A stretch of 64,000 nt of DNA, taken from positions 146,178-210,177 of the forward strand of contig JACPWO010000002.1 of NCBI GenBank assembly GCA_016197005.1, written 5' to 3'. The notes beneath the pieces were generated by a model. That model was not told where the DNA came from, did no database searches, and saw only the letters and a program-made list of their open reading frames with translations. This document shows positions 17,035 through 28,527 of this stretch, piece by piece. A program made the translations under genes and the position numbers. How positions within the stretch are numbered: the first letter of the stretch is position 1; each line of letters opens with the position of its first letter. The DNA is from Candidatus Anderseniibacteriota bacterium. Its GTDB lineage: Bacteria; Patescibacteriota; Andersenbacteria; UBA10190.

Positions 17035-17067
17035 GAAGTCATCGTGACCCCCCTGCCGAGTTCAACA

Positions 17068-17109
17068 CCCCGCGCTTACCTTCTTGGTGAGTGCGGGTTT
17101 TCTTTTTTT
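17068..17109 (+). terminator. rho-independent terminator
   Basis: CCCGCGC...GTGCGGG hairpin followed by TTTTCTTTTTTT. Confidence 0.55.
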
Positions 17110-18547
17110 ATATCTCTCCTTCCACAACTCTTCTCTGGGTCGGAGGTTCTAGTTTTTCTAACGTAGCTGTCACTGAACCAGCACCAACTTCTTTTTTGGC
17201 ATCAATGTCAGTGGCCTCTACCCACGTTGGGATTGGGTTGCCGCCATGTAATCGGAAGAGAAACATGAGAAAAGTAGTAGCGTAAACTGCTTTCGGAAGA
17301 GAAAAGTTAACTACCACAATTTTTTTGTTACTAATCGCATGTCCGTGTATTTGGGGCGTAATCCACGGTGGAATAGTACGAGAGCGTCTCCGTAAAAATG
17401 GGTATGGGCGTAGGTGTTCCTGGTAATCCTTGGTATTGTCTCGCTCGAGATAATAGTCAAACAAACGATCTGCCTCATCACTTGTCTGCGGAAGAGGAAG
17501 GGGATCGGGAGAAGTAACTTGCCCAGCCATGGCTTGAGATAGAAATTGGTTAACGAGAAAACTACCGTAGCTATAAAACCAGAATCGTACTTGATCCTGA
17601 ATAGCTAGAAGAGCCTGAGTGGGACGATCGCCAGCTATGAGTGCATCAAGCAGTAGACGTTCGTGCCGAAACTTATATGGCAAGATATCAAATGTTTTTT
17701 TCATCTTCTGCCAATCACCATATGATTCTTTCGCTTTAACTCGCATAGATTTGTAAATCGGAACATCAAATGGACTAGTGCCAACCAAAAACGCCCGAAT
17801 GGCTTCTTCTGGTTTTCCTTGCGACAACAGCAAACCAAGATGCGGGTTAATGAGTCTATGTCCAAATCGCTGAGTGCCAAAGAAATTTGGAAATCCATCT
17901 TTTCCCAGCTTTTGTAGCGACTCCGAGAATGCTTGCTCATCAATATCTTGTTCTGTTCTGACGGTGATGGTAAATCGGTTACCAACCAGTTGCCCGGGAG
18001 ATATGGCTCCTTTGCCAATTTGTTTGGGTTTAATAAAGAAGTGGCTTTTGGGAAGTGCATTGAGTTTTTCAACAGTAGTACCGCGAATACTTACTCGCTG
18101 GCTGGTGAGGGCTCTCCCATCCTTCATCCCGGCATAGCCGACTTTCTGTGGTGAGATACCTACTTGAGAAGAAAGCTGGTTAATGGCTTCAAATGTACCA
18201 ATGCCAATTTTTACTAAGTCAGCATAAATAGTTTCTCCTTCAGATATCTCTTGAGTAAAAGGTTCTGTCGATGGGTCTATCGTAGTTTGGTCACCTTCTC
18301 CTTTTAATTCCTCAACAATAAAGTCTTGGGGATAGTAGCGAAGGTAGCCGGTTAACGAAGGATTAACCCCAGTAATACCAACATATTGCAAAGCGGTAGC
18401 TGGATCATACTGCGAGGAACGCACCATTTGATCTGGGTATTTTTTTGCCAGTTTTTCGTAGTTCTCCTGCTCCAATTTGAATAGCTCGGACTCACTTACT
18501 TGTTCCTTTTTGTCCATAGGTAATTCCAGTGTATCCTTTATAATCAC
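17108..18547 (-). CDS. truD: tRNA pseudouridine synthase TruD/Pus7-like
   Basis: FPNFFGTQRFG is the TruD hallmark motif. 479 aa, longer than typical bacterial TruD. Confidence 0.7.
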   Translation of the reverse strand: MIIKDTLELPMDKKEQVSESELFKLEQENYEKLAKKYPDQMVRSSQYDPATALQYVGITGVNPSLTGYLRYYPQDFIVEELKGEGDQTTIDPSTEPFTQEISEGETIYADLVKIGIGTFEAINQLSSQVGISPQKVGYAGMKDGRALTSQRVSIRGTTVEKLNALPKSHFFIKPKQIGKGAISPGQLVGNRFTITVRTEQDIDEQAFSESLQKLGKDGFPNFFGTQRFGHRLINPHLGLLLSQGKPEEAIRAFLVGTSPFDVPIYKSMRVKAKESYGDWQKMKKTFDILPYKFRHERLLLDALIAGDRPTQALLAIQDQVRFWFYSYGSFLVNQFLSQAMAGQVTSPDPLPLPQTSDEADRLFDYYLERDNTKDYQEHLRPYPFLRRRSRTIPPWITPQIHGHAISNKKIVVVNFSLPKAVYATTFLMFLFRLHGGNPIPTWVEATDIDAKKEVGAGSVTATLEKLEPPTQRRVVEGEI

Positions 18548-20935: not shown

Positions 20936-21238
20936 TCATTTTTCACCAAGCTGGCGCCCGCGTTTTTCCAGTTGCTTTGCTCGTTCTCGCAGAGACTCAA
21001 CGGTCTCGCCAACGGCATCAGCGTAGTGCTCCTTTTGCTCGGGGCTGAGTGAGCCGATATCCTTTTCAAAGTATTCCAGCTCATCAGGCGTCACCTCGCT
21101 TCCTTTTTCTGCCATGTGTTGCCTAACCTGAGCAATCGTTAGACTATGATCAATCCGAAACTGTCTTCCTGACCGACCGAACCAGGAGCGAATCATTATT
21201 TTCCTCCGAAGGTGCAAGTTTGCTTGGGAATGCTGCAT
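20936..21238 (-). CDS. hypothetical small protein
   Basis: 100-aa ORF, charged C-terminal half. Start possibly at internal MIRSWFG. Confidence 0.3.
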   Translation of the reverse strand: MQHSQANLHLRRKIMIRSWFGRSGRQFRIDHSLTIAQVRQHMAEKGSEVTPDELEYFEKDIGSLSPEQKEHYADAVGETVESLRERAKQLEKRGRQLGEK

Positions 21239-21255
21239 TCCCTATGCTTCCTTAT

Positions 21256-24120
21256 ATGTCACCTGCGGCAAAAGGTAAATTTCGTCCAGTCGATCCGCGT
21301 CCAAACATTGATGAATTGGAGCACGGTATTTTAGATATCTGGGAGAAGGAAAAAACGTTTGAAGTATCCCTGGAGCAGAATAAAGATAAGCCACTTTTTA
21401 CATTTTATGATGGGCCGCCATATGCTACTGGCAAGCCCCACTACGGACACGTCTTACAGTCCGCTATTAAAGATACGATCTTAAGATACAAAACGATGCG
21501 CGGATATTATGTCCCGCGTCGAGTCGGCTGGGATACCCATGGTCTGCCAGTCGAGGTACTCGTTGAAAAAGAGTTAGGCCTAAGAACAAAACGAGAGGTA
21601 GAGGAATATGGCATTGAAAAGTTTAACCAGAAATGTCGCGAAGCAGTATTCCGTTACATTGATGAATTTACCGCTACCTTAAAACGTTTGGGCCGCTGGG
21701 CAGATTATGAAAATGGGTATGCCACGCTTGATCGAGATTACATGGAATCCGAGTGGTGGGTATTTCAGCGGCTTTGGGAGAAGGATTTGGTATACAAAGA
21801 TTTTCGGTCAACTCCGTACTGTATTCGCTGCGCTACACCGCTTTCCAATTTTGAAACTGGAATGGGATACAAAGATACAACAGACACTGCTGTATATGTG
21901 CTCATGCCAATTCGGGATCAGTCGCTTTTCCTGCTTGTCTGGACAACTACGCCTTGGACATTGCCTGGAAATGCAGCCGTCGCCTTTAACCCTGCAGTTT
22001 CGTATGTGTCCGTAAAAGTTGATGGTAAAGAAATTATCATTGCCAAGGACAGAGTTGTGGCCGTATTTGGTGAAGATACAGAAATTGTACGAGCGTGGTC
22101 ACAAAAAGAATTAGCCGCGATGACCTACGAAGCGCCGTATCCAGCCTCCGAAATACCAGCTGATGCTAAGAATATGTATACCGTGGTACCGGCAGATTTC
22201 GTTACCGCAGAAGACGGTACCGGCTTTGTACACATTGCGCCAGCCTTTGGCACTGATGACTTTGAGTTGTCCAAAAAAGTTGGACTGCCAGTCATTCGCA
22301 CCATAAATCCGAGTGGAATATTTGAAGAACATATTCCGCAGTGGGGCAGCCAGCACATCTGGAAAGTAAATAAGGCAATTCCCAAAGACTTACAAGCACG
22401 CGGACTACTTGTAAAAGAAGAGCAGTACAAGCATAGCTATCCCCATTGCTGGCGTTGTGATGAGCCCCTCATTTACTACGCACTCGACAGCTGGTTTGTA
22501 CGGGTCACTCAACTAAAAGAAGATATGCTAGCTCAGAATGAGAAAATTTCCTGGATTCCTGAGCATTTGAAGGAAGGTCGTTTTGCTAAGGGTATTAAGT
22601 CAGCTCCTGACTGGGCGGTATCTCGTAATCGCTACTGGAGTGTGCCAATACCGGTGTGGGAGTGTGACAGTTGTGATCACCGCGTATGTATTGGCAGTAT
22701 TGCTGAACTGCAAGAAAAATCTGGTGCTACGAATATAGAAGACATTCATCGACCGTATGTCGATAGCTTTACGTGGAAGTGTGAGCGGTGTGAGGGAACA
22801 ATGAAGCGTATTTCGGAGGTACTGGATGTGTGGTTTGATTCTGGATCAATGCCATACAGCCAGTGGCATTACCCGTTTGAAAATAAGGAGTTTGTCGAAA
22901 AGGGTTTTCCAGCAGATTTTATTGCAGAGAGTATTGAGATGACTCGTGCGTGGTTTTATGTCCTGCACGTGTTATCAACTGCCCTCAAAGAAAGCCCTGC
23001 CTACAAGAACGTCATCGGCTCTGGCATCATTTTTGGTGAAGATGGTAACAAGTTGTCTAAGAAACTGAAGAATTATCCTGACGTTGAGCCTACCCTTGAA
23101 AAGTACGGCGCCGATACCATTCGTCTCTTTTTCTTATCCAGCACGTTGGGAGAGCCGTACGTATTCTCAGAGAAAGATCTACAACAGTTGTTTAGAAACT
23201 TCACAATGCGTCTGTGGAATGTGTATAGCTTCTTTGTGCAGTATGCCAATACTGCTGACTGGGAACCGGCGAAAGAGACGGTACCTAGTTCTGAGCAGAT
23301 CCTGGACAAATGGATTTTAACTAGAATTAAACAGTTGGAGTACGTCGTCATACAAAAAACTGACTCATATCGGGTAGATGTTTCAGCTCGAGAATTTGTT
23401 ACCTTCGTTGACGACTTAAGTAATTGGTACGTCCGCCGGTCTCGGGAACGTTTTCAGCCGCGGGGTGAACAAGATAGTGCTGCCTTCGTTACTTTACATG
23501 CGGTGCTCGTACGTTTGGCAAAACTCCTAGCTCCCTTCATGCCGTTCTTATCGGAAGAGCTGTATCGAAATGTAACGGGAGCAGGTTCGGTCCATTTAGC
23601 TGACCTTTCCGATCCAAGTGAACTTTCTCAAGACGAGCAGGCGCTTCTTTCAACAATGACAGCAGCTCGCGAGATTGTCTCGCAAGGCCTTTCGGCTCGA
23701 GCCCAAGCAAACATTAAAGTGAGGCAGCCATTGGGAAAATTAACCGCGCCAGGCGTGGATGCGCTGCCGCCCGGAGTTATTGAAATGATAAAAGAGGAAG
23801 TCAACGTTGATGAGGTTGTGGTTGGTGACAAACTCGAACTTGCGACGGAAATATCAGAAGAATTACGAGATCGTGGTACTGCTCGCGAAATCATTCGGCA
23901 TGGACAGGTTCTGCGTCGTACCGCTGGGTATGCTTTGGATGATCGAATTACGCTTGTGCTATCTACTTCCGACGAAGGACTAAAACAGGTATTAGCAAAA
24001 TATCAGGAGGAGATTGTAACTGCCTTACAGGTCAACGAGATTACCGAAAACGGGGAGACTGATACCAAAAAAGAAGTTATGGTCGACGGGAAGTTGATTG
24101 TAGTAGGAGTCAGGAAATAA
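21256..24120 (+). CDS. ileS: isoleucyl-tRNA synthetase, eukaryote-like type 2
   Basis: FYDGPPYATGKPHYGHVL (HIGH). KLSKKLKNY (KMSKS variant). Editing domain present. Start trimmed to ATG 21256 (MSPAAKGKF). Confidence 0.9.
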   Translation: MSPAAKGKFRPVDPRPNIDELEHGILDIWEKEKTFEVSLEQNKDKPLFTFYDGPPYATGKPHYGHVLQSAIKDTILRYKTMRGYYVPRRVGWDTHGLPVEVLVEKELGLRTKREVEEYGIEKFNQKCREAVFRYIDEFTATLKRLGRWADYENGYATLDRDYMESEWWVFQRLWEKDLVYKDFRSTPYCIRCATPLSNFETGMGYKDTTDTAVYVLMPIRDQSLFLLVWTTTPWTLPGNAAVAFNPAVSYVSVKVDGKEIIIAKDRVVAVFGEDTEIVRAWSQKELAAMTYEAPYPASEIPADAKNMYTVVPADFVTAEDGTGFVHIAPAFGTDDFELSKKVGLPVIRTINPSGIFEEHIPQWGSQHIWKVNKAIPKDLQARGLLVKEEQYKHSYPHCWRCDEPLIYYALDSWFVRVTQLKEDMLAQNEKISWIPEHLKEGRFAKGIKSAPDWAVSRNRYWSVPIPVWECDSCDHRVCIGSIAELQEKSGATNIEDIHRPYVDSFTWKCERCEGTMKRISEVLDVWFDSGSMPYSQWHYPFENKEFVEKGFPADFIAESIEMTRAWFYVLHVLSTALKESPAYKNVIGSGIIFGEDGNKLSKKLKNYPDVEPTLEKYGADTIRLFFLSSTLGEPYVFSEKDLQQLFRNFTMRLWNVYSFFVQYANTADWEPAKETVPSSEQILDKWILTRIKQLEYVVIQKTDSYRVDVSAREFVTFVDDLSNWYVRRSRERFQPRGEQDSAAFVTLHAVLVRLAKLLAPFMPFLSEELYRNVTGAGSVHLADLSDPSELSQDEQALLSTMTAAREIVSQGLSARAQANIKVRQPLGKLTAPGVDALPPGVIEMIKEEVNVDEVVVGDKLELATEISEELRDRGTAREIIRHGQVLRRTAGYALDDRITLVLSTSDEGLKQVLAKYQEEIVTALQVNEITENGETDTKKEVMVDGKLIVVGVRK

Positions 24121-24143
24121 CCGCCTATTTTTGCTCCAGCTTG

Positions 24144-24175
24144 AAAACACGTCGTTCCAGACGGTGTGTTTTTGT
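24144..24175 (+). terminator. rho-independent terminator after ileS
   Basis: AACACGTC...GACGGTGTGTT imperfect hairpin followed by TTTTTG. Confidence 0.5.
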
Positions 24176-25420
24176 ATATAGAAATCAGTAGTCGTTCGTT
24201 AGAAAAGTCGGAACAGTAGAAGTGCGGCTCGGGCGAGAGAGGAGGTGGCATCAGGGTTTTTTACGAGCACTGCCTAAGGGCAATGGCTTGCTAAAATAGA
24301 ATATGCACCTCTTCTCGACAGCAATGAGTTAGTTCGAGATCCCGTCTGGGATGCTCGCCATCACGCACAAGTATCTGTGGAGGAGGTTACCATCCCCTCT
24401 CGATCGAGCCGCACTTTCATCATTAATGCAGTGAACACTATGTCCACTTCAATTGTGGGTATTGATGTCGCATCTCGCAAGCTTGATATGTGCATTGAGC
24501 AAGACGGGAAGCAGCAATATGCCACCATCGAAAATACGGCGCAGGCAATTGCGCAGTACGCAAAGGAGCACAAGCTCTCGCGCAAGAACTGTCTCGTTGG
24601 CCTGGAGGCAACGAACGATTACCACTTCGTGGTAACCCGGTTCTTTCTCAAGAAAGGGATTCCGGTTAGGATCATGAATCCCATTGTGACTAAGCGATAC
24701 ACCCGCACGACAGTGCGGGGGAAAAAGACAGACAAGACAGATGCACAGAACATTGCTCGTCTGGCCGCGGAAGGAGAGGGAGAATTGGCTAGCTTAAGCA
24801 ATGTAGACAACCGAGAGAAGGAACTTTTGAGACTCTCCCGATCACTTGTGAAGCTGAAAGTTCAGCTGACGTTGCGCCTGCAGAGCCTGCGCCGCAAGCA
24901 ACTCAAGAACACTGGCCGCATCGAACGAAAGCTGGAAAAGATTGAGGGCATGCTTTTTGATGTAGCAGAAGAGTTAGTAGGTGAAGTTACTGAAGATCGC
25001 TCCCACGACGAAGAGCTCATCGACTCCATTCCCGGATTCTCCACTAAGCTCTCCGCAATTGTTCATCATGAATTAGGCGATGTTACGAGATTCAAGAACG
25101 CGAGAAGCCTCGCTTCTTTTGCCGGACTTGATCCGAGGGTGGTACAGAGTGGCGGCAGGCTGCATACCAGCGGACGCCTCATGAAGCGAGGTTCCCCGTA
25201 CTTACGGTCAGCATTGTTCTTGGCTGCAAACGTGGCCTACCATTACGACGAAGAGCTTGGTGAATACTATGCAAAAAAGAAAGCCGAGGGAAGATCGCAC
25301 AAGGAAGTCCTATGCATCATTTCAAGGAAACTCCTGTACCGTATCTGGGCAGTGCTTAAAGAACAGCGAGAGTATGTAGTGAAACAAAATACAAACTAAA
25401 TGCTCTTGCGGAAGACATAG
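24176..25420 (+). mobile_element. IS110-family insertion sequence (boundaries approximate)
   Basis: Single DEDD-type transposase gene preceded by a roughly 265-nt non-coding left end and followed by a very short right end. This matches IS110-group architecture, which has no terminal inverted repeats. Confidence 0.6.
24440..25399 (+). CDS. IS110-family transposase (DEDD RuvC-like N-domain plus Ser-containing C-domain)
   Basis: IVGIDVASRKLD, LVGLEATNDYH and KTDKTDAQNIARLAA blocks (DEDD). C-terminal IPGFSTKLSAIVHHELGDVTRFKNARSLASFAGLDPRVVQSGG block. Confidence 0.85.
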   Translation: MSTSIVGIDVASRKLDMCIEQDGKQQYATIENTAQAIAQYAKEHKLSRKNCLVGLEATNDYHFVVTRFFLKKGIPVRIMNPIVTKRYTRTTVRGKKTDKTDAQNIARLAAEGEGELASLSNVDNREKELLRLSRSLVKLKVQLTLRLQSLRRKQLKNTGRIERKLEKIEGMLFDVAEELVGEVTEDRSHDEELIDSIPGFSTKLSAIVHHELGDVTRFKNARSLASFAGLDPRVVQSGGRLHTSGRLMKRGSPYLRSALFLAANVAYHYDEELGEYYAKKKAEGRSHKEVLCIISRKLLYRIWAVLKEQREYVVKQNTN

Positions 25421-25783
25421 TTAGCTATTTTCTACATGTTCTAAGCGTTCAGGCATATCATCTTGATAGCGAACTCGTTTATCTAGGGCTGTAATAGCTG
25501 ATGTGTTGATTTTAACCTCAGTTTCTAGGTCATCAACCTTTGTCTTTAAAATATCAACTGTACCGGAAAGACGAGAAACACCAGTTTCGAGAGAGCTTAA
25601 TCGTTCATCGAGATTGAAGACACTCTTTTCAACAGAACCAAGCCGTTTATCGAGACCAACCATACCTTTTTCAACAGAACCAAGCCGTTTATCAACCTTT
25701 CCGCTGAACAAACCAATAGCATCTACCAGTTCTTCCCACTCCGCGTGGGTAATAGGCTGATTCTTTGAATCTTTTCGAGGCAT
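25421..25783 (-). CDS. coiled-coil protein with 14-residue tandem repeats (hypothetical)
   Basis: Repeats DKRLGSVEKGMVGL / DKRLGSVEKSVFNL / DERLSSLETGVSRL. Underlying roughly 42-bp nucleotide tandem repeat at about 25610..25700. Confidence 0.4.
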   Translation of the reverse strand: MPRKDSKNQPITHAEWEELVDAIGLFSGKVDKRLGSVEKGMVGLDKRLGSVEKSVFNLDERLSSLETGVSRLSGTVDILKTKVDDLETEVKINTSAITALDKRVRYQDDMPERLEHVENS

Positions 25784-25824
25784 AAAAACAGTGTACCACC
25801 TTCTTATGATACAATCAGTACAAT

Positions 25825-26553
25825 ATGCCTCGGTCACAGAAGCTGAAGGCTTTGGTGCTTTCTCGTCGTAATATTGGCGAAGCTGATCGCCTCGTTACTT
25901 TTTTGACGCGTGAATATGGGATTATGAAAGGCGTGGCCAAGGGTGTTCGGAAAATTCCTTCGAGTCGTGGTGGTCACCTTGAGCCCTTTACCCAAGTGTT
26001 AGTGCTTGTGCGAATGAGTCGAGGAGCAACGTATATAGGAGCGACTGAAACCGAAACGTACTTTCCACAGTTGCGTGCCAATGGTAAAACTCTGACTCAT
26101 GCTCGAGCCATGGCCTATGCTGCTATTTCGTTATTGGGTGAGCAGGATCCGGTTCCTGAGCTGTATGACATGATGCAAGAAGCCTGGCACCTGTTACCTA
26201 AGCTGCCCTCAGCGAAGCAAGACGTAGTCGAGGGAGCAGCTCTTCTTTTAGTGCTGAGGCTGGCGGGCGTGTTACCAAATTGGCAGAACTGCCAAGCGTG
26301 TGGGCTCACGACTCCGACCGAATCAGTTGTGTTGGACGCTACTCAAGGTGGTTGGCATTGTCTTACGTGTCACCAATCACTCCGCGATACGAAATTTTCT
26401 ATGTCACCGAAACTTATTGCCCTGCTTAGATACCTTTCTGCTCACCCCGAGGCAACTACTCGTCTGGCAGTTGCCGAACATGATAGTTCTCAATTTTTAT
26501 CTTCGCTCCGGTACTTTATGCGAGGAATGTTAAATCAGGTAACGGCTAGTTAG
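25825..26553 (+). CDS. recO: DNA repair protein RecO
   Basis: LKALVLSRRNIGEADRLVTFLTREYGIMKGVAKGVRK...LEPF is the RecO N-terminal OB-fold signature. C-terminal Cys pairs (CxxC...CxxC) present. Confidence 0.8.
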   Translation: MPRSQKLKALVLSRRNIGEADRLVTFLTREYGIMKGVAKGVRKIPSSRGGHLEPFTQVLVLVRMSRGATYIGATETETYFPQLRANGKTLTHARAMAYAAISLLGEQDPVPELYDMMQEAWHLLPKLPSAKQDVVEGAALLLVLRLAGVLPNWQNCQACGLTTPTESVVLDATQGGWHCLTCHQSLRDTKFSMSPKLIALLRYLSAHPEATTRLAVAEHDSSQFLSSLRYFMRGMLNQVTAS

Positions 26554-26556
26554 AGT

Positions 26557-28527
26557 ATGGAAGACAAGAAAGATATAGATAAACAAGTGCCTGAGCAGGA
26601 TGATTCTATCTCCATGTTGCGTAAGCAGCTGTATGCAAAGGATGAGTCGAGAGAATTACAGACACGAGCGAAGGAACTAGCAACCCCTCGACAACTTGCC
26701 GAAGTTCCTCTTGAGCAAAATGAGGGTTCAGGTTTAGTGGATATTATTGCTAAACAAAAGCGTCGTCGGCAGAAACTTTTGTACATTGTTTCTATTGCCG
26801 GAGTTGTGATCGCTGTCACCGCCGCCTCGGCGGCTGCTACGTTGTGGTATCGCCGAGCGCATCGAGTGTTGCCGGAAAATATTGTACTGACCATTCAAGC
26901 ACCAGCTGACGTAATGGCCAGCGATACCATTGAAGTAATACTGAAGTATAAGAACGATAGTCGAGTTCGCTGGGATAATGTTGAGCTGCGACTAGATACG
27001 CCAGCTGGATTTCGAGTGGGCGCTCAGGACGAAAGGTTGAAGCAAACTGCTCGCAACCAATACACCGCTTCTCTCGGAACAGTAGAACCCGCTGCGGAAG
27101 GGCAACTTACCTTTTCTGGCCAGCTCATTGGCGAGCAAGGTTCTACAGCCTTAGTACGCACTCAGATTTTCTTTACGCCAGAGAATTTCCCCAGCGGACG
27201 CTTTGACGCATCTCAATCTCACTCGATAACGATCGCTTCAGTACCGTTGGAAATTTCTGTGGCGGCCCCGGGCAGTGCGGCCAGTGGGGAGCGAATCCCG
27301 GTAACGATTCGTGTTCGCAATATTGGGGACGAACCCATTATTGGCGGAAAATTAAAAATGGAGCCAGCCCCAGGAGTACAGCTGGCGCCAGAGGATACGG
27401 AGTTTTCTCCAGACTTTTCAATTTCAGATAGCTCGTGGCAACTACCCACATTACAGTCACTGGAAGAAGTAACGCGTATAGCGGTGTGGTATGTGGATGG
27501 ACAAGCCGGCGAACGTAGAATTGTGACAATTAAAGGCTTGGCAAATGCCGGCGAAGAAGAGTTCCTTCTTCGCACTGTTGATCAATCAATTGCCATCTCT
27601 GCTTCTGAAGTTGCAATCTCGCAGACATTTACCGGACGAGAAAGTGATCAGCCGCTTATAGCTGGTGAAACAATTGAAGGGAAAATAGAGTATCAAAACA
27701 CGGGCACAACTGCACTTTCCAACGCTGTGGTCAGTCTGCAATTCGAAGGTAATGTTATTGATCCATCGAAAATTCAAATTGATACCGGTGCGTATGACCC
27801 GATAGCTCGCACTATTAATTGGAAGGCTGCCTCTGTACCGGAACTGGCAACACTTGCTCCCCAAGAAAAAGGAGAGCTTAAATACAAGTTTGCGCTCCTG
27901 CCGCTGGCTTCTCTCCCGGCTGATGAAAGTGTAAAAAACCAAAACCTCATTATTACCGCTTCCATTACTAGTCCAGATCTCCCGGTTCGCTCAGGACAAG
28001 AAGAACGCTCGGTTACTGATCGTCTGGTGTTACCAGTAGCGACAAGTTTGCTGTTGTCGGTAGATTCTTTCTATGACGATGGACGGTTAGGTCTAAAGTC
28101 GAGTGGGCCTCTGCCGCCAAAGGTTGGTAGCACAACCAGCTATACGGTTCGCTTTAGGCTCGGAACTTCGCTCAATGACGTGGGTGATGTAAAGCTACGG
28201 GGGGTACTGCCAGAATCTGTCCATTACACCGGAAATGTATATAAAACTGAAGGCGAAGTAACCTTTAATGATCATACAAACGAAGTACTATGGGATATTC
28301 CATTTATTGCTGGCCTGGCAGGTCGATCTGGCCCGGCCCCCGAGCTCCACGTGCAAGTGTCGGTAACTCCGGGTGAGAATGTTCGTGGTCAAGAAGTTGT
28401 TTTACTTTCGGCTGCGGCTGCACAAGCTACTGACTTATTTGCAGATATTGCGGTGAGTGCAGAAGTAAAAGTGAACGATCTTCCAGATACAGAAAAAGCT
28501 GTTCCGACTAAGGGAGAAGTTGAGTAA
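26557..28527 (+). CDS. large membrane-anchored surface protein with repeated beta-sandwich (DUF11/CARDB-like) domains
   Basis: Cytoplasmic charged N-terminus, one TM (LLYIVSIAGVVIAVTAASAAATLWY), then roughly 560 aa of repeated roughly 110-aa modules. Confidence 0.45.
   Translation: MEDKKDIDKQVPEQDDSISMLRKQLYAKDESRELQTRAKELATPRQLAEVPLEQNEGSGLVDIIAKQKRRRQKLLYIVSIAGVVIAVTAASAAATLWYRRAHRVLPENIVLTIQAPADVMASDTIEVILKYKNDSRVRWDNVELRLDTPAGFRVGAQDERLKQTARNQYTASLGTVEPAAEGQLTFSGQLIGEQGSTALVRTQIFFTPENFPSGRFDASQSHSITIASVPLEISVAAPGSAASGERIPVTIRVRNIGDEPIIGGKLKMEPAPGVQLAPEDTEFSPDFSISDSSWQLPTLQSLEEVTRIAVWYVDGQAGERRIVTIKGLANAGEEEFLLRTVDQSIAISASEVAISQTFTGRESDQPLIAGETIEGKIEYQNTGTTALSNAVVSLQFEGNVIDPSKIQIDTGAYDPIARTINWKAASVPELATLAPQEKGELKYKFALLPLASLPADESVKNQNLIITASITSPDLPVRSGQEERSVTDRLVLPVATSLLLSVDSFYDDGRLGLKSSGPLPPKVGSTTSYTVRFRLGTSLNDVGDVKLRGVLPESVHYTGNVYKTEGEVTFNDHTNEVLWDIPFIAGLAGRSGPAPELHVQVSVTPGENVRGQEVVLLSAAAAQATDLFADIAVSAEVKVNDLPDTEKAVPTKGEVE

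What the first reader, a model, noticed from the sequence alone, without database searches (positions are those of the whole stretch)
24176..24439. IS110-family element with a long non-coding 5' end that could encode a bridge-type guide RNA
The transposase at 24440..25399 has the DEDD RuvC-like domain and C-terminal Ser domain of IS110-family recombinases. The element has a roughly 265-nt non-coding left end directly after the ileS terminator and an almost absent right end. Recent work on IS110/IS621 elements showed that this non-coding end encodes a structured bridge RNA that specifies target and donor. The left end here contains several hairpin-capable segments (e.g. GGTGGCATCAGGG followed by TTTTTT, and TGCC-taag-GGCA).
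Basis: partly seen in the sequence, partly recalled or inferred. Interest (0 to 1): 0.6.

Follow-up and report, generated by a model that had tools for sequence, protein, structure and literature searches.

The report
IS110 element with bridge RNA
The 267-base non-coding left end of this small mobile element very probably encodes a bridge RNA, a folded guide RNA that tells the element's recombinase which DNA to insert into; this is an undescribed but ordinary member of a known class.

Summary
Window 24173..25424 is a 1,252-bp IS110-group insertion sequence. It sits in the U-tract of the ileS terminator of a Candidatus Andersenbacteria (CPR) genome.

- **Recombinase:** the CDS 24440..25399 (319 aa) passes Pfam and NCBIfam IS110 models. 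It keeps the residues that align with the IS621 catalytic D-E-D-D and Ser.
- **Ends:** the left end is 267 nt and the right end 25 nt.
- **Conservation:** the left end is homologous to the upstream regions of about 25 related transposases in unrelated contexts. It folds into a covariation-supported structure: 81.8% of cells paired against 44-53% in slid controls, with compensatory changes at 51 of 54 pairs.
- **Structure:** a long closing helix carries two stem / internal-loop / hairpin arms.
- **Guides:** the four loop strands behave as bridge-RNA guides. Across relatives each tracks its own element's left flank, right flank, right-end tail or left-end start (0 of 100,000 permutations reach the observed match in all four tests).
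- **This copy:** RTG AAAATAG is a 7/7 complement of the right flank. LTG matches the left flank 7/9.
- **Promoter:** a -35/-10 pair with 17-nt spacing forms only across the circle junction.

Expression and activity are untested. It is a new member of a known kind, and interest is modest.

The parts
24144..24172 (+). ileS intrinsic-terminator hairpin (AAAACACGTCGT / ACGGTGTGTTTT). Its 3' arm and U-tract form the left target.
   Evidence: Inverted repeat I9. The restored empty site folds as hairpin + UUUUAUUUUC.
24164..24172 (+). Left target plus left copy of the core: GTGTGTT + TT.
   Evidence: Matches LTG GGGTTTTTT at 7 of 9 positions in the register shared by relatives.
24173..24439 (+). Left end (LE) of the insertion sequence, 267 nt. 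It starts TGTATAT and is the bridge-RNA gene.
   Evidence: Homology with relatives begins here. Model R1 scores 166.8 bits on 24218-24419 and has no other hit in the window.
24175..24180 (+). -10 hexamer TATATA of the promoter that is completed only in the circular form. The predicted transcription start is near 24187.
   Evidence: Same position as TATATT/TATACT in 16 of 20 relatives, 17 nt from a -35 in the right end. The start site is inferred.
24220..24245 (+). P1 closing helix, 5' strand. Pairs with 24390-24416.
   Evidence: 24-nt inverted repeat, 88% complementary. All 12 outer pairs show compensatory changes.
24246..24307 (+). Target-binding arm: basal stem 24246-51/24303-07, internal loop, hairpin 24264-90.
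   Evidence: Helices 4-6: 86%, 76% and 74% paired, and 12 of 14 pairs show changes on both sides.
24254..24262 (+). Left target guide (LTG) GGGUUUUUU, in the sense of the left flank.
   Evidence: Across 20 elements the loop matches its own left flank 6.9/9 against 4.46/9 for other elements' flanks; 0 of 100,000 permutations.
24293..24299 (+). Right target guide (RTG) AAAAUAG, the reverse complement of CTATTTT at 25425-31.
   Evidence: 7/7 in this copy. Across 18 elements the 5 non-core bases match 4.56/5 against 1.43/5; 0 of 100,000 permutations.
24308..24386 (+). Donor-binding arm: basal stem 24308-14/24380-86 plus 24318-21/24375-78, internal loop, hairpin 24335-57.
   Evidence: Helices 7-9: 89%, 100% and 85% paired, and all 20 pairs show changes on both sides.
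24326..24334 (+). Left donor guide (LDG) GAGUUAGUU, in the sense of the right-end tail TAGTTAG + core.
   Evidence: The LDG follows every right-end-tail variant in the family (AGTTAG, AGTTGG, AGTAGG, AGGAGG, AGGAAG, GTTAGT). Own 6.35/7 against 5.31/7; 0 of 100,000.
24367..24371 (+). Right donor guide (RDG) ACAAG, the reverse complement of CT+TGT (donor core plus left-end start).
   Evidence: The RDG follows left-end-start variants: ACAAG/CTTGT, ACGAG/CTCGT, ATGAA/TTCAT, ATAAG/CTTAT.
24390..24416 (+). P1 closing helix, 3' strand.
24440..25399 (+). IS110-family recombinase, 319 aa. Residues D9, E56, D98, D101 and S237 align with the IS621 catalytic residues.
   Evidence: Pfam, NCBIfam. Alignment to IS621 chain 8wt6_A, E 4.4e-26. 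E56, D98, D101 and S237 are invariant and D9 nearly invariant in 34 homologues.
25400..25424 (+). Right end (RE), 25 nt, ending CATAGTTAG. It contains the -35-like TTGCGG at 25406-11.
   Evidence: Right-end tail conserved in relatives. The -35 lies 13 nt before the core, as in 16 of 20 relatives.
25425..25431 (+). Right copy of the core (CT) plus right target ATTTT.
   Evidence: Perfect complement of the RTG.

Best explanation
Window 24173..25424 is an intact IS110-group insertion sequence.

**The RNA (shown).** Its left end encodes a roughly 230-nt bridge RNA. The RNA folds into a closing helix (P1) that carries two arms. Each arm is a basal stem, an internal loop and a hairpin.

**The guides (shown by comparison).**
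- In the first arm, GGGUUUUUU (24254-62) is read in the sense of the DNA left of the insertion point. AAAAUAG (24293-99) is read as the complement of the DNA to its right.
- In the second arm, GAGUUAGUU (24326-34) and ACAAG (24367-71) match the element's own joined ends in the same way.

**Mechanism (inferred by analogy with IS621).**
- The element excises as a circle.
- The RE-LE junction then completes a promoter: TTGCGG, 17 nt, TATATA. This promoter transcribes the RNA.
- The 319-aa DEDD-plus-serine recombinase binds both arms. It exchanges strands at a 2-nt core between the circle junction and a site of the form GGGTTTT-(T/C)T-ATTTT. That motif is the 3' shoulder and U-tract of an intrinsic terminator.

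**This copy.** It landed in the ileS terminator. Its right side matches perfectly and its left side has two mismatches.
For: - **Protein.** IS110 Pfam domains and the NCBIfam equivalog are passed. The sequence aligns with solved IS621 and keeps residues at the D-E-D-D-S catalytic positions.
- **Ends.** LE 267 nt, RE 25 nt. This is the IS110-group pattern described in PMC11208160.
- **Homology.** The left end is homologous in about 25 elements from unrelated contexts. The CM also finds L014, L023, L024 and L008, which were not in the seed alignment.
- **Structure.**
  - MAFFT alignment: 77.9% of cells paired against 44-54% for slid controls; 51 of 57 pairs have compensatory changes; 0 of 500 shuffles reach the observed value.
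  - CM alignment of 25 sequences: 81.8% paired; covariation score 0.549 against at most 0.175 for slid controls.
- **Guides.** RTG, LTG, LDG and RDG each match their own element's flank or end better than other elements' (0 of 100,000 permutations each).
  - Elements L016 and L025 have a TT core instead of CT, and both have AA instead of AG in the RTG and the RDG.
  - Elements not used in the alignments also fit: L023 LT 7/7 plus one of the two core bases (8/9), L024 LTG 8/9, L076 LTG 9/10 and RTG 7/7, L081 LTG 6/6 of the available bases.
- **Multicopy relative.** The relative P0079 has at least 8 copies. All are bounded by the same ends and flanked by CT-GAAGTTT, which its RTG ACUUCAG complements over its first seven bases, CTGAAGT.
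- **Promoter.** A -35/-10 pair with 17-nt spacing spans the junction at a fixed position in 16 of 20 elements. No -35 is present in the integrated context of the window.
Against: - **No expression or activity data.** Neither can be obtained with these tools.
- **Single, fixed copy.** Only one copy exists in the window. Every contig in the collection that carries the identical transposase, ileS or recO carries this same insertion. Recent mobility is therefore not shown, and no empty site was recovered.
- **Imperfect left target.** It matches the LTG at only 7 of 9 positions.
- **Weak junction promoter.** This copy scores 3/6 and 4/6, well below the family consensus.
- **Handshake guides.** The positions defined in IS621 show no clear complementarity here.
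- **Shared ancestry.** The donor-side covariation (LDG, RDG) could partly reflect common descent, because guide and end are inherited together.
Confidence: 0.9

Rival explanations
1. The left end is only a structured 5' leader that regulates transposase translation or stability. It would have no role in choosing DNA sites.
For: - The region lies directly upstream of the start codon.
- A TTTAATyCTTAA motif and an invariant CTATG at the start codon are conserved and could be regulatory.
- Small RNAs modulating IS110 transposase expression have been proposed for ISPpu9, as cited in PMC11208160.
Against: A leader would not need loop sequences that change with the flanking host DNA of each insertion. 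The flanks are not inherited with the element, yet the RTG non-core bases match 4.56/5 against 1.43/5 and the LTG 6.9/9 against 4.46/9.
Confidence: 0.04
2. The left end is host sequence, such as the ileS 3'-UTR or an intergenic regulatory RNA, and is not part of the mobile element.
For: It directly follows the ileS terminator. No genome lacking the insertion was found for comparison.
Against: - The same sequence and structure precede related transposases next to unrelated genes.
- Similarity ends sharply at (C/T)T-TGTATAT.
- Identical copies of a relative at different loci share exactly this boundary.
Confidence: 0.01
3. The element is a bridge-RNA element by descent but is now an immobile relic in this genome. 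The causes would be weak promoter hexamers, guide strands that can pair with each other, and a mismatched left target.
For: - There is a single copy, fixed in every assembled contig that carries the locus.
- The junction hexamers are TTGCGG and TATATA, against the family pattern TTGACx and TATATT.
- The LTG U-run and the RTG A-run pair with each other in the MFE fold.
- A site at 17095-17108 matches the predicted target with one mismatch and is unoccupied.
Against: - The ORF is intact with all catalytic positions.
- All four guides still match this copy's own ends and right flank.
- The 90% relative L049 has the same hexamers but a different RTG and a different insertion site, so the clade was mobile after those hexamers arose.
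Confidence: 0.25

Closest known systems
IS621 bridge RNA and recombinase (Escherichia coli; Durrant et al. 2024, PMC11208160; Hiraizumi et al. 2024, PMC11208158)
   Same: - Both have a DEDD RuvC-like domain plus a Tnp domain with the catalytic serine (alignment E 4.4e-26).
- Both have a long LE and a short RE.
- The LE starts TGTAT after a CT core in both.
- Both RNAs have two stem / internal-loop / hairpin modules. The 5' loop strand is sense to the left DNA and the 3' loop strand is antisense to the right DNA, with the core included in the guides.
- In both, the promoter is split across the RE-LE junction.
   Different: - The proteins match only weakly (95 bits).
- Model R1 of this RNA family does not detect the IS621 RNA (best 5 bits).
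- IS621 has three consecutive domains: 5' stem-loop 1-33, TBL 34-98, an 11-nt linker, DBL 110-177. Here the two arms abut without a linker and are enclosed by a roughly 23-bp closing helix.
- The RTG here is about 7 nt, against 4 nt in wild-type IS621.
- In this subclade the left core copy is TT and the right copy is CT.
Other IS110-group elements with predicted bridge RNAs (ISPpu10, ISAar29, ISHne5; Fig. 6 of PMC11208160)
   Same: They belong to the same group: bridge RNA in the LE, a short 2-3-bp sub-terminal inverted repeat (here ATA...TAT around the core), and 8-14 nt of loop-to-DNA pairing.
   Different: Their structures could not be inspected here because the figures are not held. It therefore could not be checked whether any of them shares the closing-helix layout.
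IS1111-group seekRNA / bridge RNA (Siddiquee et al. 2024, cited in PMC12045711)
   Same: An RNA-guided DEDD recombinase of the same family.
   Different: IS1111 elements carry the RNA in a long RE and have 7-17-bp sub-terminal inverted repeats. Here the RE is 25 nt and the RNA is in the LE.

Membership tests
IS110 family (IS110 group) insertion sequence | [quoted passage not shown] | tested here: met
   Pfam E 8.5e-25 and 1.6e-24. NF033542 scores 182.8 bits against a cut-off of 140. D9, E56, D98, D101 and S237 align with the IS621 catalytic positions.
IS110 family (IS110 group) insertion sequence | Long non-coding left end, short right end, no long terminal inverted repeats, and a 2-nt core repeated at both junctions | tested here: met
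   LE 267 nt and RE 25 nt. Cores are at 24171-72 (TT) and 25425-26 (CT). Most relatives have CT at both junctions.
Bridge RNA | Conserved structured RNA in the non-coding end, supported by covariation | tested here: met
   81.8% of cells paired against 44-53% for slid controls; 51 of 54 pairs have compensatory changes; 0 of 500 shuffles. The same conclusion holds on the structure-blind MAFFT alignment.
Bridge RNA | Target-binding loop: the 5' strand matches the top strand of the left target plus core, and the 3' strand is complementary to the core plus right target | tested here: met
   In the window, LTG 7/9 and RTG 7/7. In the family, 0 of 100,000 permutations reach the observed match. Hold-out elements also fit.
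Bridge RNA | Donor-binding loop: the 5' strand matches the RE tail plus core, and the 3' strand is complementary to the core plus LE start | tested here: met
   LDG GAGTTAG matches RE tail TAGTTAG at 6/7. RDG ACAAG pairs with CTTGT. Both follow every variant of the ends seen in the family and the TT-core variants.
Bridge RNA | Promoter reconstituted across the RE-LE junction of the circular form | tested here: met
   A -35 lies 13 nt before the core and a -10 at LE bases 3-8, 17 nt apart, in 16 of 20 elements. The window has TTGCGG/TATATA at those positions, and no -35 is present in the integrated context. These are consensus matches only; transcription was not measured.
Bridge RNA | Handshake guides: the two bases 3' of the RTG and RDG core positions pair with positions 6-7 of the non-cognate DNA | tested here: inconclusive
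   21 of 40 (TBL) and 16 of 40 (DBL) positions could pair, wobble included, which is near chance. In the window, the pairings are AA with G,A and TA with T,T.
Bridge RNA | The RNA is expressed, is bound by the recombinase and is required for recombination | not testable with these tools
   This needs RNA-seq, binding assays and recombination assays.
Rfam-curated RNA family | A match to any Rfam 15 covariance model | tested here: not met
   Only two chance-level hits at E > 3 in 23000-27000, neither on the plus strand of the left end.
IS621-type bridge RNA (sequence/structure homologue) | Detectable by a common covariance model, with the linear layout 5' stem-loop, TBL, linker, DBL | tested here: not met
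   R1 does not find the IS621 RNA. The layouts differ.

The most novel reading that the evidence does not exclude
This metagenome-only clade, which includes CPR genomes, may use a distinct bridge-RNA layout and a split core.

- **Layout.** A closing helix of about 23 bp ties the target arm and donor arm together at a three-way junction with no linker. In IS621 the two loops in one synaptic complex come from two different RNA molecules. Here the geometry might let, or force, one RNA to supply both loops.
- **Split core.** The window's subclade consistently has TT at the left junction and CT at the right. LTG and LDG read UU, and RTG and RDG read AG. This suggests a natural use of different target and donor cores read through G-U wobble.
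- **Target.** The LTG is aimed at the U-tract shoulder of intrinsic terminators, which would serve as a generic safe landing site.
Probability: 0.25. Interest if true: 0.5.

Novelty: new member of a known kind. Interest (0 to 1): 0.3.

Why it matters
- **Support for the model.** The result adds a comparatively validated bridge RNA and its compact 319-aa recombinase from a lineage known only from metagenomes. The nearest plasmid-borne relatives listed are below 40% identical. This extends the evidence that RNA-guided recombination is general in IS110 elements.
- **Annotation tool.** It gives a working covariance model (R1) and a guide map for about 25 orthologues. These could be used to annotate such elements, which the source record names only 'IS110 family transposase'.
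- **Engineering leads.** For genome engineering the family offers natural variants with a longer 7-nt right target guide, a different RNA scaffold and natural core changes (CT to TT).
- **No change to the mechanism.** None of this alters the known picture of how bridge RNAs work.

Tried and rejected
- **Rfam 15 scan** of 23000-27000 at E up to 10: nothing relevant.
- **Other copies, to define the ends directly.** The identical transposase occurs only at this one locus in all contigs found. R1 finds no second copy or solo RNA in the 64-kb window.
- **Empty site.**
  - Contigs carrying the identical ileS or recO all carry the insertion.
  - The neighbouring minus-strand ORF has only three distant homologues. 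The one looked up is not syntenic.
  - The third large protein search was not spent on ileS or recO. CPR orthologues would be too diverged to give a nucleotide-level empty site.
- **Scanning the whole non-coding RNA** for 9-mers matching the flanks was too noisy: background maxima were about 6.3/9. It was replaced by position-restricted tests.
- **Handshake-guide complementarity:** no signal above chance.
- **Homology to the IS621 RNA** using R1: none.
- **RNAalifold on the raw MAFFT alignment** recovered only 28 pairs and one spurious helix in the target arm. A hand-derived structure was used and tested with slid controls.
- **Sigma-70 scan of the integrated locus** found no promoter for the RNA.

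Full report
**What is there**

The window comes from a Candidatus Andersenbacteria (CPR) metagenome-assembled genome, GCA_016178385.1. The gene order around the finding is as follows.

- ileS, 21220..24120 (+), ends with a terminator hairpin at 24144-24172.
- A 319-aa ORF, 24440..25399 (+), follows. It carries PF01548 (DEDD_Tnp_IS110) and PF02371 (Transposase_20). It also passes the NCBIfam equivalog NF033542, 'IS110 family RNA-guided transposase', at 182.8 bits against a cut-off of 140.
- A minus-strand coiled-coil ORF, 25421..25783, comes next, and then recO at 25825..26553.

The recombinase aligns with the solved IS621 recombinase (8wt6, E 4.4e-26). It keeps D9, E56, D98, D101 and S237 at the positions of the IS621 catalytic D-E-D-D and serine. 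E56, D98, D101 and S237 are invariant and D9 nearly invariant in 34 homologues.

**Ends of the element**

About 45 loci encoding relatives with 24-90% identity were fetched.

- Upstream similarity begins sharply at (C/T)T-TGTATAT. In the window this puts the core at 24171-72 and the first left-end base at 24173.
- Downstream similarity ends at ...ATAGT(T/A)(A/G)G, followed by CT. In the window the right end is 25400..25424, and the core CT is at 25425-26.
- A relative with at least 8 identical copies in one 1.08-Mb contig shows the same boundaries at different loci.

The element is therefore 1,252 bp, with a 267-nt left end and a 25-nt right end. This is the IS110-group pattern.

**Structure**

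The left end folds far better than shuffled sequence (z = -4.0 and -4.6). I derived a structure with three parts.

- **P1**, a closing helix: 24220-31 with 24405-16, 24234-39 with 24397-402, and 24241-45 with 24390-95.
- **Target arm**: stem 24246-51 with 24303-07, an internal loop, and hairpin 24264-90.
- **Donor arm**: stem 24308-14 with 24380-86 plus 24318-21 with 24375-78, an internal loop, and hairpin 24335-57.

The structure was tested on two alignments.

| Alignment | Sequences | Cells paired | Slid controls | Pairs with compensatory change | Shuffles reaching observed |
|---|---|---|---|---|---|
| MAFFT (structure-blind) | 22 | 77.9% | 44-54% | 51 of 57 | 0 of 500 |
| Model R1 (covariance model) | 25 | 81.8% | 44-53% | 51 of 54 | 0 of 500 |

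On the R1 alignment the covariation score is 0.549, against at most 0.175 for slid controls. R1 scores 166.8 bits on 24218-24419 and finds nothing else in the window. It also detects the RNA upstream of four transposase relatives that were not in its seed (L014, L023, L024, L008).

**Guides: the decisive test**

A bridge RNA is defined by two internal loops (PMC11208160). In each loop the 5' strand equals the top strand of the left DNA plus core. The 3' strand is complementary to the core plus the right DNA.

In the window:

| Guide | Sequence and position | Partner | Match |
|---|---|---|---|
| LTG | GGGTTTTTT, 24254-62 | left flank GTGTGTTTT | 7/9 |
| RTG | AAAATAG, 24293-99 | right flank CTATTTT | 7/7 |
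| LDG | GAGTTAG(TT), 24326-34 | right-end tail TAGTTAG(CT) | 6/7 non-core |
| RDG | ACAAG, 24367-71 | CT+TGT (donor core plus left-end start) | 5/5 |

Across the family each guide tracks its own element:

| Guide | Own element | Other elements | Permutations reaching observed |
|---|---|---|---|
| RTG, 5 non-core bases at a fixed position | 4.56/5 | 1.43/5 | 0 of 100,000 |
| LTG | 6.90/9 | 4.46/9 | 0 of 100,000 |
| LDG | 6.35/7 | 5.31/7 | 0 of 100,000 |
| RDG | 4.82/5 | 4.11/5 | 0 of 100,000 |

Host flanks are not inherited with an element, so the target-side result cannot be explained by shared descent. Elements L016 and L025 have a TT core. In both, the core-reading bases of the RTG and the RDG have changed from AG to AA. 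Elements kept out of the alignments also fit:

- L023: LT 7/7 plus one of the two core bases, which is 8/9.
- L024: LTG 8/9.
- L076: LTG 9/10 and RTG 7/7.
- L081: LTG 6/6 of the available bases.

**Promoter**

In 16 of 20 elements a TTGxxx hexamer lies 13 nt before the core in the right end. In several elements it overlaps the stop codon. It sits 17 nt from TAT(A/T/C)xT at left-end bases 3-8. One relative has a perfect TTGACA-17-TATAAT.

The window has TTGCGG (25406-11) and TATATA (24175-80) at those exact positions. No -35 is present in the integrated context. This matches the published circle-junction promoter. These are consensus matches only; transcription was not measured.

**How it most likely works**

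What is shown:
- the anatomy of the element;
- the conserved fold;
- the guide-to-DNA correspondence;
- the split promoter motif;
- an intact catalytic set.

What is inferred by analogy with IS621:
- excision to a circle;
- transcription of an RNA of about 230 nt from the junction promoter;
- binding of both arms by recombinase dimers;
- strand exchange at the core between the circle junction and a GGGTTTT-(T/C)T-ATTTT site.

Removing the element in silico restores a canonical ileS terminator, a hairpin followed by UUUUAUUUUC. The 90% relative L049 also sits in the U-tract of a terminator hairpin. The best unoccupied match to the predicted target in the window, 17095-17108, is a terminator shoulder as well.

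**Comparison with known systems**

The element meets every testable defining feature of an IS110-group bridge-RNA element. It is not a close homologue of the IS621 RNA.

- R1 does not detect the IS621 RNA.
- Rfam has no matching family.
- IS621 is a linear series: 5' stem-loop, TBL, 11-nt linker, DBL. Here the arms abut and are enclosed by P1.
- The RTG is about 7 nt here, not 4 nt.
- The window's subclade (window, L049, L047, L076) always has TT at the left junction and CT at the right.

The published survey reports 'diverse structures' and predicted bridge RNAs in 85.7% of IS110 elements. I therefore treat these differences as variation within a known kind.

**Limits**

- There are no expression or activity data.
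- There is only one copy, and it is fixed in all assemblies that carry the locus. No empty site was recovered.
- The left target has two mismatches, and this copy's promoter hexamers are weak.
- Handshake-guide pairing is not evident.

**Verdict**

The element is a new member of a known kind. Interest is 0.3.

Noticed in passing
window 24171-24172 and 25425-25426; also L049, L047, L076: In the window's subclade the left copy of the core is always TT and the right copy CT. The core-reading bases are UU in the LTG and LDG and AG in the RTG and RDG. This fits a TT target core and a CT donor core read through G-U wobble, with the top-strand core staying with the left-hand DNA. Relatives L016 and L025 have switched fully to a TT core, with AA in the RTG and RDG.
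   Followed up: partly
window 24144-24172; L049 about 430-469; window 17060-17110: This element and its 90% relative both sit in the U-tract of an intrinsic-terminator hairpin. The best unoccupied match to the predicted target in the window (GGGTTTTCTTTTTT, one mismatch) is also a terminator shoulder. The conserved LTG (G)GGUUUUUU may make terminators the preferred landing sites of this subclade.
   Followed up: partly
window 25421-25783 (minus strand): The stop codon of the neighbouring 120-aa coiled-coil ORF (weak DUF7310 match) is supplied by the last bases of the right end plus the core. In the restored empty site the ORF would run 134 aa, through the ileS terminator hairpin, and end just after the ileS stop codon. 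The insertion therefore changed this protein's C-terminus, or the ORF is not a real gene.
   Followed up: partly
window 24417-24442; alignment A2 columns 325-365; L075 1840-1856: CTATG at the transposase start codon is invariant across the family, apart from one exception at the C. It is also present in IS621 (CACTATGGAA). A TTTAATyCTTAA motif between helix P1 and the start codon is conserved as well. No Shine-Dalgarno sequence is obvious. This may be a translation-control or RNA 3'-end signal.
   Followed up: no
L015 297-330, L016, L025, L029 (relatives, not the window): In one clade a perfect hairpin followed by a T-run (GAACCTAACAGTCGTTAGGTTCTTTTT) lies immediately after the junction promoter and upstream of the bridge-RNA core. 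It looks like an intrinsic terminator or attenuator. The window has only a weak 4-bp hairpin at that place (24194-24214).
   Followed up: no
L050-L059 (contig Ga0612041_0022 and others): A 48%-identical relative is present in at least 8 identical copies, some only 2-12 kb apart. All are inserted at a repeated ...GTATAT-CT-GAAGTTT... sequence, so the target is a dispersed repeat.
   Followed up: partly
window 24257-24262 and 24293-24296: Both sides of the target are T-rich. As a result the LTG U-run and the RTG A-run of this RNA are complementary to each other and pair in the MFE fold. This would close the target-binding loop in the free RNA.
   Followed up: no
window 24440-25399, residues 136-289: The C-terminal half of the recombinase gives a weak hit, below the cut-off, to the NCBIfam TIGR-Tas RNA-guided endonuclease model (22 bits, E 1e-4). 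This is consistent with the published evolutionary link between IS110 and TIGR-Tas proteins (PMC12045711).
   Followed up: no
L026 767-817, L027 1294-1344, L039 612-662, L034 942-978: Model R1 gives weak hits (E about 0.2) limited to its donor-arm positions (roughly 97-159), upstream of transposases only 30-33% identical. This suggests the donor arm is the more widely conserved half of the RNA.
   Followed up: no
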